IMG/VR virus record: IMGVR_UViG_2778261163_000005
Strand: one strand, 5' to 3'
DNA from: a virus
Taxonomy: Duplodnaviria; Heunggongvirae; Uroviricota; Caudoviricetes
DNA: 9,254 nt
Every line of letters starts with the position of its first letter. The stretch's first letter is position 1. Below, piece by piece: positions 666 to 9,254 of the stretch. The translations under genes were made by a program, and so were the position numbers. The notes below the pieces were generated by a model that did not search any database, was not told the DNA's origin, and saw only the letters and a program-made list of their open reading frames with translations.

Positions 666-4067
<3,402 letters not shown>

Positions 4068-4133: not shown

Positions 4134-4733
4134 ATGCGTAAACTTTATGCCGCCATTTTGTCCGCAGCCATTTGTCTGGCCGTATCCGGTGCGCCTGCAT
4201 GGGCGTCTGAACATCAGTCCACGCTGAGCGCGGGGTATCTTCATGCCCGGACGAACGTTCCCGGCAGTGATGATCTGAACGGGATTAACGTGAAATACCG
4301 TTATGAGTTTACGGACACACTGGGGATGGTGACGTCGTTCAGCTATGCAGGAGACAAGAATCGCCAGATTACCCGTTACAGCGATACCCGCTGGCATGAA
4401 GATTCCGTTCGTAACCGCTGGTTCAGCGTAATGGCGGGGCCGTCTGTGCGCGTGAATGAATGGTTCAGCGCGTATGCGATGGCGGGTGTGGCTTACAGCC
4501 GTGTGTCGACTTTCTCCGGGGATTATCTCCGCGTAACTGACAACAAGGGGAAAACGCACGACGTGCTGACCGGAAGTGATGACGGTCGCCACAGCAACAC
4601 GTCTCTGGCGTGGGGAGCTGGCGTGCAGTTTAACCCGACCGAATCCGTGGCCATTGATATTGCTTATGAAGGCTCCGGCAGTGGCGACTGGCGCACTGAC
4701 GGTTTCATCGTGGGTGTCGGTTATAAGTTCTGA
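4134..4733 (+). CDS. lom: Outer-membrane protein Lom (Ail/Lom/PagC/Rck family 8-stranded beta-barrel), 199 aa
   Basis: The sequence matches my recollection of lambda Lom ([41 protein letters not shown] ...). It has an N-terminal signal peptide with an AWA-SE cleavage motif, alternating aromatic/hydrophobic beta-strand patterns, and a C-terminal ...GVGYKF ending in Phe, typical of outer-membrane beta-barrels. The ribosome-binding site GAGAGG at 4123-4128 lies 5 nt before the ATG. Confidence 0.92.
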
Positions 4734-4786: not shown

Positions 4787-4797
4787 GTGGGGTGAAT

Positions 4798-7700
4798 ATG
4801 GCAGTAAAGATTTCAGGTGTACTGAAAGACGGCACAGGAAAACCGGTACAGAACTGCACAATCCAGCTGAAAGCAAAACGTAACAGCACCACGGTGGTGG
4901 TGAACACGGTGGCCTCAGAAAATCCGGATGAAGCCGGGCGTTACAGCATGGACGTTGAGTACGGTCAGTACAGCGTTATTCTGTTGGTGGAAGGCTTCCC
5001 GCCATCGCATGCCGGGACCATCACCGTGTATGAAGACTCACAACCGGGTACGCTGAATGATTTTCTTGGTGCCATGACGGAGGATGATGCCCGTCCGGAG
5101 GCACTGCGCCGTTTTGAGCTGATGGTGGAAGAGGTGGCGCGTAACGCGTCCGTGGTGGCACAGAACACGGCAGCCGCGAAGAAGTCAGCCAGTGATGCCA
5201 GCACATCAGCCCGTGAGGCGGCAACCCATGCGACTGATGCTGCAGGCTCAGCACGCGCAGCCAGCACGTCAGCCGGACAGGCCGCGTCGTCGGCTCAGTC
5301 AGCGACTTCCAGCGCAGGAACGGCATCAACAAAGGCCACTGAAGCATCAAAAAGTGCTGCCGCTGCAGAGTCCTCAAAAAGCGCGGCAGCTACCAGTGCC
5401 AGTGCCGCGAAAACGTCAGAAACGAATGCTGCAGCGTCACAACAATCAGCAGCCACTTCTGCATCCACCGCGACTACGAAAGCGTCAGAAGCTGCCACCT
5501 CAGCCCGGGATGCGGCGGCTTCAAAAGAGGCGGCAAAATCATCAGAAACGAACGCATCCTCGAGCGCCAGTAGCGCAGCTTCCTCGGCAACGGCGGCAGG
5601 CAATTCCGCGAAGGCGGCAAAGACGTCTGAGACAAACGCCAGGTCTTCTGAAACGGCAGCGGGACAGAGCGCCTCGGCTGCGGCAGGCTCAAAAACAGCG
5701 GCTGCGTCGTCTGCCAGTGCCGCGTCAACAAGTGCCGGGCAGGCCTCAGCCAGTGCCACCGCCGCCGGAAAATCGGCAGAAAGCGCCGCATCGTCTGCTT
5801 CAACAGCCACAACGAAGGCTGGCGAAGCCACTGAACAGGCCAGCGCAGCAGCGAGGTCTGCTTCCGCAGCGAAGACATCCGAAACGAACGCGAAAGCGTC
5901 GGAAACCAGCGCAGAATCCTCAAAAACGGCTGCCGCATCGTCAGCCAGTTCGGCGTCGTCATCGGCATCATCTGCGTCTGCTTCAAAAGATGAGGCGACC
6001 AGACAGGCGTCAGCAGCGAAGGGTAGCGCCACGACGGCATCCACGAAGGCGACAGAGGCAGCTGGCAGTGCGACGGCAGCAGCTCAGAGCAAAAGTACGG
6101 CGGAATCTGCAGCAACGCGCGCTGAGACAGCGGCAAAACGGGCAGAGGATATTGCATCCGCCGTGGCGCTTGAGGATGCGAGCACGACGAAAAAGGGGAT
6201 AGTACAGCTCAGCAGTGCGACCAACAGCACTTCCGAGTCACTGGCGGCAACGCCAAAAGCCGTTAAGGCCGCGTATGACCTGGCTAACGGGAAATACACC
6301 GCACAGGATGCAACGACAGCACAGAAAGGGATAATCCAGCTAAGCAGCGCGACCAACAGCACGTCTGAAACGCTGGCGGCAACGCCAAAGGCAGTAAAAG
6401 CAGCCAATGACAATGCTGAGAAACGTCTGCAGAAAGATCAGAACGGTGCGGATATCCCTGGCAAAGACACCTTTACGAAAAATATTGGTGCCTGCCGTGC
6501 CTTCGGTGGGTCAGTAAGCACAACAACAGGAAACTGGACGACTGCACAGTTTATCGAGTGGCTGGATTCTCAGGGAGCATTTAACCATCCATACTGGATG
6601 TGCAAGGGTTCCTGGTCTTATGGCAATAATAAAATCATTACTGATACTGGCTGCGGTAATATTCATCTCGCCGGAGCTGTCATTGAAGTAATGGGGATAA
6701 AGTCAGCGATGACGATCCGCATTACCACACCGACCACCTCCACTGGTGGTGGAACAACTAACGCCCAGTTTACCTATATTAATCACGGAACAGATTATTC
6801 ACCTGGCTGGCGAAGGGACTATAACTCCAGAAATAAGCCAACGGCATCAGAGATCGGGGCGTTACCGTCAGGTGGAACAGCAGTATCATCAGTTAATCTG
6901 TCTTCAAAAGGTCGGGTAACCGCGCTGACAGACAATACGCAGGGGGCAACAGGTCTTGAGTTATACGAGGTGTATAACAACGGATATCCAACAGCGTATG
7001 GAAATATCATTCACCTGAAAGGGATGACAGCCGTTGGCGAAGGTGAGTTACTCATCGGCTGGAGTGGTACAAGCGGTGCTCATGCTCCGGCATTTATTCG
7101 TTCACGACGGGATACGACCGACGCAAACTGGTCGCCGTGGGCGCAGCTTTACACCTCGGCTCATCCTCCTGCAGAGTTTTATCCAGTCGGTGCACCAATC
7201 CCGTGGCCATCAGATACCGTTCCGTCTGGTTATGCCCTGATGCAGGGGCAGACTTTTGACAAATCTGCTTACCCGAAACTTGCAGCCGCTTATCCGTCAG
7301 GCGTGATCCCTGATATGCGTGGCTGGACGATTAAGGGCAAGCCCGCCAGTGATCGAGCCGTATTGTCTCAGGAACAGGACGGCATTAAATCACACACCCA
7401 CAGCGCCAGCGTATCCAGTACGGATTTGGGGACGAAAACCACATCGTCGTTTGATTACGGCACTAAATCCACGAATAACACTGGTGCGCATACCCATAGT
7501 GTTAGCGGTACGGCTGCTTCAGCCGGTGCACATACCCATTCGATGACATTTGTTTCAGGTGGTTCCAGTGGTGCTCCGGGAAGTGGATCACCTGATTATT
7601 CTAAATACAGTGTTAACACTTCTTCTGCAGGCGCTCATACGCACTCTGTATCGGGTACTGCTGCAAGCGCAGGTGCACACGCACATACTGTCGGTATTGG

Positions 7701-7821
7701 TGCTCATACGCACTCCGTTGCGATTGGTTCACATGGACATACCATCACCGTTAACGCTGCTGGTAACGCGGAAAACACCGTCAAAAACATCGCATTTAAC
7801 TATATTGTGAGGCTTGCATAA
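4798..7821 (+). CDS. stf: Side tail fibre protein Stf, intact and enlarged (about 1007 aa from the ATG at 4798; the ORF track begins two codons earlier at GTG 4792)
   Basis: The N-terminus ([26 protein letters not shown] ... [13 protein letters not shown]) matches what I recall of lambda Stf (orf-401). The C-terminus (...[31 protein letters not shown]) matches what I recall of the lambda orf-314 end. The stop overlaps the tfa start. GTGGGG at 4787-4792 is a plausible ribosome-binding site for the ATG at 4798. Confidence 0.88.
5150..6170 (+). repeat. Ala/Ser/Thr-rich low-complexity shaft region of Stf with degenerate tandem motifs (recurrent A-K-[TS]-SETNA..., [16 protein letters not shown])
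   Basis: About 340 codons are dominated by GCN, TCN and ACN codons, and short peptide motifs recur many times. Long open frames appear on both strands in the other registers, which is characteristic of such repeats. Confidence 0.75.
6193..6405 (+). repeat. Two direct copies (about 6193-6273 and 6325-6405) of a roughly 27-aa tail-fibre repeat (KGI[VI][11 protein letters not shown][ST][11 protein letters not shown])
   Basis: The two copies are near-identical at the peptide level and clearly similar at the DNA level, about 130 nt apart. The motif resembles the phage tail fibre repeat found in lambda Stf and relatives. Confidence 0.8.
7484..7689 (+). repeat. Direct repeat pair encoding [17 protein letters not shown][TA]H (7484-7543 and 7630-7689) within a His-x-His-rich fibre tip
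   Basis: Two 60-nt segments encode almost the same 20 residues. Further HxH motifs surround them (SHTHS, GAHTHS, GAHAHT, GAHTHS, GSHGHT). Confidence 0.75.
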
Positions 7822-8405
7822 TGGCATTCAGAATGAGTGAACAACCACGGACCATAAAAATTTATAATCTGCTGGCCGGAACTAATGAATTTATTGGTGA
7901 AGGTGACGCATATATTCCGCCTCATACAGGTCTGCCAGCAAACAGTACCGATATTGCACCGCCAGATATTCCGGCAGGCTTCGTGGCTGTTTTCAACAGT
8001 GATGAGGCATCGTGGCATCTCGTTGAAGATCATCGGGGTAAAACGGTTTATGACGTGGCTTCCGGCGACGCGTTATTTATTTCTGAACTCGGTCCGTTAC
8101 CGGAAAATGTTACCTGGTTATCGCCGGGAGGGGAATATCAGAAGTGGAACGGCACAGCCTGGGTGAAGGATACGGAAGCAGAAAAACTGTTCCGGATCCG
8201 GGAGGCGGAAGAAACAAAAAACAGCCTGATGCAGGTAGCCAGTGAGCATATTGCGCCACTTCAGGATGCTGTAGATCTGGAAATCGCAACGGAGGAAGAA
8301 ACCTCATTGCTGGAAGCCTGGAAAAAGTATCGGGTGTTGCTGAACCGTGTTGATACATCAACTGCACCTGATATTGAGTGGCCTACGAACCCTGTCAGGG
8401 AGTAA
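7821..8405 (+). CDS. tfa: Tail fibre assembly protein Tfa (chaperone for the Stf C-terminal domain), 194 aa
   Basis: The sequence ([54 protein letters not shown] ...) matches my recollection of lambda Tfa, which is also 194 aa. The start ATG overlaps the stf stop (TAATG). GTGAGG at 7807-7812 is a plausible ribosome-binding site. Confidence 0.92.
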
Positions 8406-8419
8406 TCATTGGGATTATG

Positions 8420-8453
8420 CCGCAGAAACGTTGTATGCAATAACGTTCTGCGG
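8420..8453. other. Imperfect hairpin in the convergent tfa / permease spacer (ccgcagaaacgtt - gtatgcaat - aacgttctgcgg); a second 7-bp hairpin lies at 8462-8481 (atgcact-ttcgag-agtgcat)
   Basis: Both inverted repeats are visible in the sequence. Neither is followed by a clear U tract on either strand, so a terminator role is only a possibility. Confidence 0.3.
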
Positions 8454-8617
8454 TTGGCTGATGCACTTTCGAGAGTGCATGTATTGAATTATTTCCAGCT
8501 ATTATCGATTTTACGTATTTTTTGCATGAGAGAATTTGTACCTCCTCCCAACAACGACCTTCCATGACTTTCCGGACTTCTGTGGGCCAGCGGACGATGC
8601 TGTCCTCGGATGTTGTG

Positions 8618-9254
8618 CTAATTGGGTGATGACAAATCCTGTGTATGGGTGTTTCCCTTTGTGCGTGCGTTGATGCTGGTAACGGTGAACGTCATGATGA
8701 ACACAACCGCGAATAAGACGACAATCGTCGGAGCTGGTGCACTGTCGATAAAAAAGGACAACCAGACACCAGTCATTGACACTATTACCGATATGCCAAT
8801 CGCCAGTAGGAGCGCAATATGAAAGCGTTGTGTCAGGAGTACCGCAATGGCGCCAGGCGCAATGAGCAGAGAAATGGAGAGAATGATACCTACCGCTTTC
8901 AGCGTCGCCACAATGGTCAGAGAGACCATGCACAGCAGCCCATAATGCAGACATCTCGTATGCAAACCGCTTACCTGCGCCTGTTGATAATCAAAGCTGA
9001 ACAGCAAAAAATCCCGCCATTTTACGCTAATAACAAGTGTAACCAGCCCGGCAATAATCACCGTCTGGATTATATCGCCGATGGTTACCCCGAGCATGTC
9101 GCCGAAAAGAATATGGTCAAGATGTACGTCTGGTTTGACTGCAATATACAAGATCAGACCTGCGGCAAACATGCCAGAAAAAACAATCCCCATCACTGTA
9201 TCTTGCTTGATTCGGCTGTTGTCTTTCAGGTATCCCGTCGCCACCGCGCAGAAT
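8618..9254 (-). CDS. sitD: ABC-3 family divalent-metal (Mn2+/Fe2+-type) transporter permease, SitD/MntB-like, 5'-partial (frame open to the window edge; stop TAG at 8618-8620)
   Basis: The protein is strongly hydrophobic with multiple predicted membrane helices. It carries family motifs (D-x-x-LFGD near the start of the visible part, and LKAVGIILSISLLIAPGAIA) similar to ZnuB/MntB/SitD permeases. The gene symbol is an inference from the family and from the known association of sitABCD with lambdoid prophage tail regions in E. coli and Shigella; it could instead be another ABC-3 permease. Confidence 0.6.
   Translation of the reverse strand, partial: FCAVATGYLKDNSRIKQDTVMGIVFSGMFAAGLILYIAVKPDVHLDHILFGDMLGVTIGDIIQTVIIAGLVTLVISVKWRDFLLFSFDYQQAQVSGLHTRCLHYGLLCMVSLTIVATLKAVGIILSISLLIAPGAIAVLLTQRFHIALLLAIGISVIVSMTGVWLSFFIDSAPAPTIVVLFAVVFIMTFTVTSINARTKGNTHTQDLSSPN

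What the first reader, a model, noticed from the sequence alone, without database searches (positions are those of the whole stretch)
8618..9254. Metal-uptake ABC permease as cargo directly downstream of the tail-fibre module
A SitD/MntB-like ABC-3 permease gene converges on tfa, in the position occupied by the non-essential b region in lambda. Mn/Fe uptake systems of the sitABCD type are fitness and virulence factors and are known to be associated with prophage-like islands in E. coli and Shigella. The gene is AT-richer than the tail genes by eye. This suggests the prophage carries, or has fused with, a metal-acquisition operon.
Basis: partly seen in the sequence, partly recalled or inferred. 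Interest (0 to 1): 0.45.

Follow-up and report, generated by a model that had tools for sequence, protein, structure and literature searches.

The report
Phage-borne sitABCD metal-uptake operon (known)
The gene fragment is the end of sitD, the last gene of a manganese/iron uptake operon that this E. coli Rac-like prophage carries as cargo just inside its right attachment site, an arrangement already described for many lambda-like coliphages.

Summary
Window 8618-9254 (minus strand) encodes the C-terminal 211 residues of SitD, an ABC-3 family permease (Pfam E=9e-52). It converges on tfa across a 212-bp spacer.

In the closest complete genome (E. coli E275a, 100% identical over tfa-sitD), sitC, sitB and sitA follow. 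Next come Fur- and MntR-type operators, then the prophage P arm, then the 26-bp Rac/ttcA att core, and only then the host gene uspF. Genomes with an empty site read dbpA-ttcA-uspF without sit. K-12 Rac has pinR-ydfK-ynaM in the same slot. So sitABCD lies inside the prophage, in the position of the lambda b region.

It is not new. Twenty-seven phage records carry the same cassette, including phage 21. Published work reports sitABCD on 70% of infant-gut lambda phages (PMC6969025), as cargo at the tail end of an EAEC 042 prophage (PMC2808357), and as expressed morons of the LF82 phage Perceval (PMC9928086).

The "AT-richer" remark is only partly true: the sitD fragment is 48.4% GC, tfa 48.7% and J 55.9%.

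Verdict: real, correctly read, ordinary and already known. Low interest.

The parts
8618..9254 (-). 3' 636 nt of sitD: the C-terminal 211 codons plus a TAG stop at 8618-8620. The full gene is 285 codons and the frame is open at the window end.
   Evidence: open frame. (Pfam ABC-3, E=9e-52). (100% identical to RefSeq sitD, WP_000968131.1). (closest solved structure is a Mn ABC permease, 7kyo, E=9e-39).
8598..9254 (-). Left end of the conserved ~3.66-kb sit cassette shared with phage 21. Homology starts 20 bp beyond the sitD stop.
   Evidence: L001 20778-24433 matches phage 21 L003 8981-12638 at 97.6% over 3658 bp (window coordinate = L001 minus 12180); most other chromosomal copies start matching at window 8598, and plasmid copies at 8589 or 8611.
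8406..8617 (.). 212-bp convergent spacer between tfa and sitD, GC 0.453. It has two stable hairpins on the + strand, at 8419-8454 and 8461-8480. No canonical intrinsic terminator was found.
   Evidence: fold, z=-3.2. (no terminator-like site). (minus-strand fold not significant). (GC).
8436..8571 (+). Spacer segment 'X'. Here it lies between tfa and sitD. In phage 21 it lies on the other side of the cassette, upstream of sitA.
   Evidence: L001 20616-20751 matches L003 12630-12761 at 86% identity. In phage 21 the junction falls in the middle of the first hairpin.
7821..8405 (+). tfa (tail fibre assembly protein), the last gene of the tail module. Its ATG overlaps the stf stop.
   Evidence: (Caudo_TAP, E=1.5e-44). 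(annotated tfaR). Homology to K-12 Rac ends at window 8383.
4792..7821 (+). stf, the side tail fibre (context). RefSeq places the start at the ATG at 4798.
   Evidence: phage_tail_N, Phage_fiber_2, Collar.

Best explanation
The fragment is the 3' end of sitD, the last gene of a sitABCD operon. The operon is lysogenic-conversion cargo (a moron) of a Rac-like lambdoid prophage integrated in ttcA of E. coli. It occupies the slot between the tail-fibre genes and attR, which corresponds to the lambda b region. SitA is the periplasmic Mn2+/Fe2+-binding protein, SitC and SitD form the ABC-3 membrane permease, and SitB is the ATPase. The operon is transcribed leftward, opposite to the late tail operon, from its own promoter upstream of sitA. 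That promoter region carries a Fur box and an MntR palindrome. Expression in the lysogen is therefore inferred to be set by host iron and manganese status rather than by the phage lytic programme. The expected benefit is Mn/Fe supply and peroxide resistance for the host, and so for the prophage. Shown here: gene identity, operon completeness in near-identical genomes, position inside attR, absence from empty sites and from K-12 Rac, presence in 27 phage records, and presence of the operator sequences. Taken from the literature or inferred: transport specificity, Fur/MntR repression, expression in lysogens, and the fitness effect.
For: Identity: Pfam ABC-3 E=9e-52. The DNA is 100% identical to annotated sitD. 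The nearest solved structures are Mn permeases, 7kyo/7kyp, at about 1e-38, against ZnuB at 2e-14. Operon: sitD-sitC-sitB-sitA are contiguous in E275a and in record ON032529. Boundary: the GGGGCAAAA arm repeats and the core GCCCTTACTTGTTCAGGTTGTATTGTTCTTTCTT occur once right of sitA (L001 24599-24632) and once next to int (L002 29249-29282). Empty-site genomes start matching at L001 24607, inside ttcA, and read dbpA-ttcA-uspF. K-12 Rac homology starts at the P arm (L001 24454), and K-12 has pinR-ydfK-ynaM where this prophage has sit. int, xis, recET, racR, ydaSTUV, trkG and the lysis, head and tail genes lie between the two cores. Prevalence: 495 of 5426 complete genomes have sitA-P arm-core-uspF. 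sitD is present in 2343 genomes. Phage carriage: 27 phage records, including phage 21, where sit lies between stf and attP/int. Regulation: a Fur box at L001 24324-24342 (2-3 mismatches; 0.01 expected by chance) and a perfect AACATAGC-N4-GCTATGTT palindrome at 24281-24300 (0 expected). Literature: sitABCD on 70% of infant-gut lambda phages, each with a Fur box (PMC6969025). It is cargo at the tail end of EAEC prophage 042p3 (PMC2808357). SitA, SitB and SitD are expressed 5-13-fold above prophage background (SitC 4-fold) in the LF82 Perceval lysogen (PMC9928086). Mn/Fe transport and MntR/Fur control are reviewed in PMC3852070.
Against: The window stops inside sitD, so sitCBA, the promoter and attR are read from other genomes. 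The best whole-window match is only 98.6% identical. No canonical terminator was found after sitD or after tfa. NCBIfam has no SitD-specific model, and all hits (AztB, SloB, ZnuB) are below their cut-offs. No expression or transport data exist for this particular prophage. Its ability to excise and package about 53 kb was not tested.
Confidence: 0.93

Rival explanations
1. The prophage ends between tfa and sitD, and sitABCD is ordinary chromosomal DNA (or a separate island) that merely abuts the prophage.
For: The genes converge, and the 212-bp spacer is AT-rich (GC 0.453). Homology to K-12 Rac stops at window 8383, just before the end of tfa.
Against: No att core lies between tfa and sitD. 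In the two E275a stretches read, the only two cores are next to int and beyond sitA. Empty-site genomes have ttcA-uspF with no sit. The phage 21 genome record holds the cassette between stf and attP, and sit-bearing lambda phages were sequenced from cultivated virions (PMC6969025).
Confidence: 0.02
2. sitABCD belongs to an older, decayed element at the same ttcA site, and a newer Rac-like phage integrated beside it. The present unit would be a fusion of two elements, not one phage's cargo.
For: Tandem occupancy does occur at this site. The int-proximal att in E275a has a P-arm-like sequence on its outer side, followed by a P2-like remnant with IS66.
Against: A tandem arrangement would leave a hybrid att core between tfa and sitD, and none is present. 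The same cassette sits in the same slot in phages with a different integrase and att site (phage 21, which integrates at icd). 495 genomes share the sitA-P arm junction.
Confidence: 0.03
3. The permease belongs to a zinc (ZnuB/AztB-like) or other non-Mn/Fe transporter, and the name SitD is misleading.
For: The best NCBIfam hit is the zinc permease model AztB (E=1e-31), and ZnuB also hits.
Against: Those hits are far below the family cut-offs (110 bits against 280, and 67 against 284). The Mn permease structures score much better than ZnuB. A Fur box and an MntR palindrome, not a Zur box, precede sitA. Sit systems of E. coli, Shigella and Salmonella have measured Mn2+/Fe2+ transport (PMC3852070).
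Confidence: 0.02

Closest known systems
sitABCD moron of lambda-like temperate coliphages: phage 21 (OL657228), the Lambda_ev/Lambda_2E9 series (Mathieu et al. 2020, PMC6969025) and LF82 phage Perceval (PMC9928086)
   Same: The same 3.66-kb cassette (97.6% identical to phage 21). The same slot between the tail-fibre genes and the att site. The same orientation, opposite to the late genes, and the same Fur box upstream.
   Different: The backbone here is Rac-like (ttcA att site, recET, racR) rather than the phage 21 backbone (icd att site). The insertion point differs: here the cassette lies right of spacer 'X', directly against the P arm. In phage 21 it lies left of X and next to a 57-bp tfa-3' remnant.
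EAEC 042 prophage 042p3 / ROD21 (Chaudhuri et al. 2010, PMC2808357)
   Same: [quoted passage not shown]
   Different: Not compared at sequence level here. The paper reports a 15-bp direct repeat, whereas about 26-34 bp are shared here.
Rac prophage of E. coli K-12
   Same: The same integration site (ttcA, next to uspF), and the same P arm and core (99.8% from L001 24454 onward). The same int/xis/recET/racR/ydaSTUV/trkG gene set, and related stfR/tfaR.
   Different: K-12 Rac has pinR-ydfK-ynaM between tfaR and the P arm, and no sit. It is also a truncated, defective prophage, whereas the E275a element has full head and tail modules.
Plasmid-borne sitABCD of ColV/ColBM-type APEC/ExPEC plasmids
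   Same: The same operon, at about 94% identity in sitD and 89-92% in the sitA upstream region. 1010 plasmid places were found among 5426 genomes.
   Different: On the one plasmid examined (pAPEC-O2-MS1266-1) it is flanked by IS1 and a Tn3 transposase fragment, not phage genes. It is a separate allele group.
Salmonella SPI-1 SitABCD, Yersinia YfeABCD and S. pneumoniae PsaBCA (cluster A-I Mn/Fe ABC importers)
   Same: The same transporter architecture and ABC-3 permease family. The PsaC structures 7kyo/7kyp align over residues 5-266 at E about 1e-38. Mn2+/Fe2+ specificity and MntR/Fur control are reported for the enterobacterial systems (PMC3852070).
   Different: Those operons are in pathogenicity islands or core chromosome, not in a phage genome. 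Sequence identity to them was not measured here, apart from the PDB comparison.

Membership tests
ABC-3 family permease of cluster A-I metal ABC importers (Pfam PF00950) | Significant match to the ABC-3 profile above the gathering score | tested here: met
   176.6 bits against a cut-off of 20.1, E=9e-52, covering profile positions 66-257 of 258.
ABC-3 family permease of cluster A-I metal ABC importers (Pfam PF00950) | Encoded with a second permease, an ATPase and a periplasmic metal-binding protein | tested here: met
   sitC, sitB and sitA are contiguous with sitD in E275a and in ON032529. This was seen in near-identical genomes, not in the window itself.
SitABCD (enterobacterial Mn2+/Fe2+ importer) | Sequence identity with proteins named SitD | tested here: met
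   The visible part is 100% identical in DNA to RefSeq sitD, WP_000968131.1. It is 98.1% identical to phage 21 SitD.
SitABCD (enterobacterial Mn2+/Fe2+ importer) | Fur and MntR operators in the sitA promoter region | tested here: met
   A Fur box at L001 24324-24342 (2-3 mismatches to the 19-mer; 0.01 expected). The palindrome AACATAGCAACGGCTATGTT at 24281-24300 (0 expected). The consensus sequences used are from my own knowledge. Binding was not tested.
SitABCD (enterobacterial Mn2+/Fe2+ importer) | Transports Mn2+ and Fe2+ | not testable with these tools
   Literature only, for homologues (PMC3852070).
Zinc permeases ZnuB / AztB (NCBIfam equivalogs) | Score at or above the curated equivalog cut-off | tested here: not met
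   Full-length SitD scores 183 bits for AztB (cut-off 280) and 73 bits for ZnuB (cut-off 284).
Phage moron / lysogenic-conversion cargo | Lies between the prophage attachment sites | tested here: met
   The att cores are at L002 29249-29282 (next to int) and L001 24599-24632 (beyond sitA), and none lies between tfa and sitD.
Phage moron / lysogenic-conversion cargo | Absent from the unoccupied site and from related phages, so dispensable | tested here: met
   The empty site reads dbpA-ttcA-uspF. K-12 Rac has pinR-ydfK-ynaM instead.
Phage moron / lysogenic-conversion cargo | Present in genomes of isolated phage particles | tested here: met
   27 phage records, including phage 21. Phages cultivated from infant-gut E. 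coli strains and viromes were sequenced in PMC6969025. Not shown for this exact prophage.
Phage moron / lysogenic-conversion cargo | Own promoter and terminator, and expressed in the lysogen | tested here: inconclusive
   Operators are present, but the promoter scan found no consensus -35/-10 for sitA and no canonical terminator. Expression in a lysogen is reported for Perceval only (PMC9928086).
Rac-like prophage at ttcA | att core within the 5' end of ttcA, with the Rac early-gene set | tested here: met
   The core encodes KKEQYNLNK of TtcA on the minus strand, and the ttcA feature lies under the match in empty-site genomes. int, xisR, recET, racR, ydaSTUV, kilR, sieB and trkG are annotated.

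The most novel reading that the evidence does not exclude
The sit cassette may be a discrete mobile unit. Its ends agree to within about 25 bp in a Rac-type prophage, in phage 21 and in ColV-type plasmids. It sits at two different insertion points relative to the same flanking 'X' sequence. This could mean it moves by a specific, unrecognised mechanism rather than by sporadic illegitimate recombination.
Probability: 0.05. Interest if true: 0.35.

Novelty: already known. Interest (0 to 1): 0.1.

Why it matters
It is a clean textbook case of a temperate phage carrying a host-fitness and virulence factor. SitABCD supplies Mn/Fe and peroxide resistance, and phage carriage explains its patchy spread. 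It is present in 43% of complete E. coli genomes, on chromosomes and on plasmids. This has already been published for lambda-like coliphages and for prophages of EAEC 042 and LF82, and it is annotated in the phage 21 genome record. The present window adds only one more instance, on a Rac-type backbone at the ttcA site.

Tried and rejected
1. Consensus terminator and promoter scans of the tfa-sitD spacer and the sitA upstream region found no canonical terminator and no convincing sitA promoter. The minus-strand fold of the spacer was not better than shuffles.

2. NCBIfam has no SitD-specific model, and only sub-threshold AztB, SloB and ZnuB hits came back. Naming therefore rests on RefSeq identity, Pfam and PDB.

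3. I looked for direct or inverted repeats flanking the cassette that would indicate transposition. Only short chance-level matches were found.

4. I searched for a second att core between tfa and sitD, to test the tandem or fusion model. None was found.

5. An Rfam scan of the sit region for a riboswitch or sRNA found nothing in sit. The only hit was IS009, inside tfa.

6. I tried to read Fisher et al. 2009 (Shigella sit locus) by DOI and by PMC id, but it is not held. A broader Shigella literature search returned nothing specific.

7. I looked for a genome identical to the whole window. The best is 98.6%, so the source genome itself is not in the collection.

8. The composition argument for foreign origin was rejected, because sitABCD at GC 0.504 equals the E. 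coli-like background.

Full report
**What is in the window.** The window is the right arm of a lambdoid prophage. It holds gpI (6-608), gpJ (669-4067), an Ail/Lom outer-membrane protein (4134-4733), the side tail fibre stf (4792/4798-7821) and tfa (7821-8405), all on the + strand. From the window end (9254) down to a TAG stop at 8618-8620, the minus strand carries an uninterrupted frame of 211 codons. That frame matches Pfam ABC-3 at E=9e-52. The observation as written is therefore correct, including the convergent arrangement and the count of 211 residues.

**Identity of the gene.** The tfa-sitD stretch (7821-9254) is 100% identical to the chromosomes of E. coli E275a and HN68, where the gene is annotated sitD. 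The full 285-aa protein is most similar, among solved structures, to the manganese ABC permease of entries 7kyo/7kyp (E about 1e-38). It is much less similar to ZnuB (2e-14). NCBIfam returns only sub-threshold hits to zinc and metal permease models, so it is not a ZnuB or AztB equivalog. In E275a the gene is followed by sitC, sitB and sitA, and the same order is found in record ON032529.

**Where the prophage ends.** In E275a, sitA is followed by about 200 bp of AT-rich upstream sequence. Next comes a block of GGGGCAAAA repeats (L001 24454-24510). Then comes the sequence GCCCTTACTTGTTCAGGTTGTATTGTTCTTTCTT (L001 24599-24632), and about 200 bp later the host gene uspF.
- In the two E275a stretches read, the same repeats and core occur at one other place, immediately outside the integrase gene about 53 kb away (L002 29249-29282).
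- Between the two cores lie int, xisR, recET, racR, ydaSTUV, kilR, sieB, trkG, and the lysis, terminase, head and tail genes. This is a complete Rac-like prophage.
- Read on the minus strand, the core encodes the N-terminal KKEQYNLNK of TtcA, the known Rac integration target. That it is the known target is from my own knowledge.

**Three classes of genome.** A search with the sitA-to-uspF segment sorts the 5426 complete E. coli genomes into three informative classes.
- 495 genomes carry the full sitA-P arm-core-uspF arrangement.
- K-12-type genomes match only from the P arm onward (L001 24454). They have pinR-ydfK-ynaM between tfaR and the P arm.
- Unoccupied genomes match only from L001 24607, inside an intact ttcA. 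They read dbpA-ttcA-uspF-ompN with no phage and no sit.

The 26 bases from 24607 to 24632 are thus the part shared by attB and attR. The sit operon is inside the prophage, in the slot that the b region occupies in lambda.

**Phage carriage.** The sitD fragment hits 27 records in the phage collection at 98-100% identity. In phage 21 (OL657228, annotated as isolated from Paris sewer in the late 1950s), sitDCBA lies between the side tail fibre genes and attP/int, in the same orientation as here. The cassette shared by phage 21 and this prophage runs from 20 bp past the sitD stop (window 8598) to 186 bp upstream of the sitA start. It is 3658 bp long at 97.6% identity.

**Junctions of the cassette.** The junctions differ between the two phages.
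- Here the cassette lies to the right of a spacer segment 'X' (window 8436-8571) and abuts the P arm.
- In phage 21 it is preceded by a 57-bp remnant of the tfa 3' end and followed by X. The break falls in the middle of the first spacer hairpin.
- No flanking repeats were found.
- Plasmid copies end within about 25 bp of the same points. On the one plasmid examined, the copy is bracketed by IS1 and a Tn3 transposase fragment.

This pattern fits repeated illegitimate or homologous exchange of a module among mosaic lambdoid genomes. I see no evidence for a dedicated mobility mechanism.

**How it most likely works.** Upstream of sitA there is a Fur-box-like 19-mer (L001 24324-24342, 2-3 mismatches, 0.01 expected by chance). 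There is also a perfect AACATAGC-N4-GCTATGTT palindrome (24281-24300, 0 expected). The palindrome is the MntR-type operator, as far as I recall its consensus.
- Published work reports repression of sit by Fur and MntR, and Mn2+/Fe2+ transport by enterobacterial Sit systems (PMC3852070).
- A Fur box was found upstream of every phage-borne sit operon in one survey (PMC6969025).
- The sit genes are expressed above prophage background in a lysogen (PMC9928086).
- The operon is transcribed against the late genes.
- The spacer contains two stable hairpins on the late-transcript strand (8419-8454 and 8461-8480; z=-3.2), but no canonical terminator.

I therefore infer a host-regulated cargo operon, independent of the phage repressor, that supplies Mn/Fe under limitation or oxidative stress. 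Expression and benefit were not tested for this prophage.

**Composition.** The sitD fragment has GC 0.484. tfa has 0.487, the stf C-terminal half 0.502, gpJ 0.559, and the whole sit operon 0.504. The 'AT-richer' impression holds only against the GC-rich tail genes and says nothing about origin.

**Novelty.** The arrangement is already in the literature.
- sitABCD 'resided on 70% of the lambda phages' cultivated from infant-gut E. coli, and was counted there as a moron (PMC6969025).
- LF82 phage Perceval encodes it as expressed morons (PMC9928086).
- The phage 21 GenBank record annotates it.
- The gene is common. sitD is in 2343 of 5426 complete E. coli genomes, at 1646 chromosomal and 1010 plasmid places.
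- The exact tfa-sitD junction of this window is rarer (63 genomes). That only reflects tail-fibre mosaicism.

**Limits.** The window ends inside sitD. Everything to the right is inferred from genomes that are 100% identical over tfa-sitD but at best 98.6% identical over the whole window. The source genome itself was not found.

**Verdict.** It is an ordinary, already described feature.

Noticed in passing
window 8164-8362 (+): Rfam family IS009, a candidate sRNA, matches at 229 bits (gathering score 117), entirely inside the 3' half of the tfa coding sequence. The family may simply model conserved tfa sequence rather than a separate RNA.
   Followed up: no
window 8419-8480 and 8436-8571; L003 12630-12761: The tfa-sitD spacer has two stable hairpins (z=-3.2) without T-runs. 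Its segment 'X' recurs in phage 21 on the opposite side of the sit cassette, and in many E. coli genomes without sit (window 8416-8545, rows H89-H99).
   Followed up: partly
L004 (ON032529.1, 'Salmonella phage SPF_0923') 13802-17314: This GenBank 'phage' record runs past the att core into the E. coli host genes uspF, ompN and nifJ. It looks like an over-extended prophage excerpt rather than a virion genome. The gene order matches the E. coli ttcA-uspF locus despite the Salmonella host label.
   Followed up: partly
L002 29290-29480 and 29541-40001 (E275a, outside int): The outer side of the int-proximal att is not ttcA. It is a second P-arm-like sequence (GGGGCAAAA repeats, 82% identical to the attR arm), followed by a tail-fibre gene, IS66 and P2-like tail genes. 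This points to a tandem or remnant element at the same site.
   Followed up: partly
L002 12819-16993 (E275a prophage, between the replication genes and the DUF1367/DUF1364/DUF1133 genes): A cluster of SIR2-family deacylase, non-canonical purine NTP pyrophosphatase, adenosine deaminase and a TetR regulator sits inside the prophage. It may be a second cargo or anti-phage defence island. trkG is also present, as in K-12 Rac.
   Followed up: no
window 4134-4733 (+): An Ail/Lom family outer-membrane protein gene (Pfam E=4.5e-120) lies between gpJ and stf. It occupies the position of lom in lambda and, as far as I recall, is another classic lambdoid moron in the same window.
   Followed up: no
window 5190-6200, both strands: The Ala/Ser/Thr-rich central part of stf (GC about 0.61, AT skew up to 0.5) generates long spurious ORFs in other frames and on the opposite strand: 336 aa at 5192-6202 (+), 249 aa at 5295-6044 (-) and 227 aa at 5474-6157 (-). 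An 87-bp segment is repeated at 80% identity, at 6193-6279 and 6325-6411.
   Followed up: no
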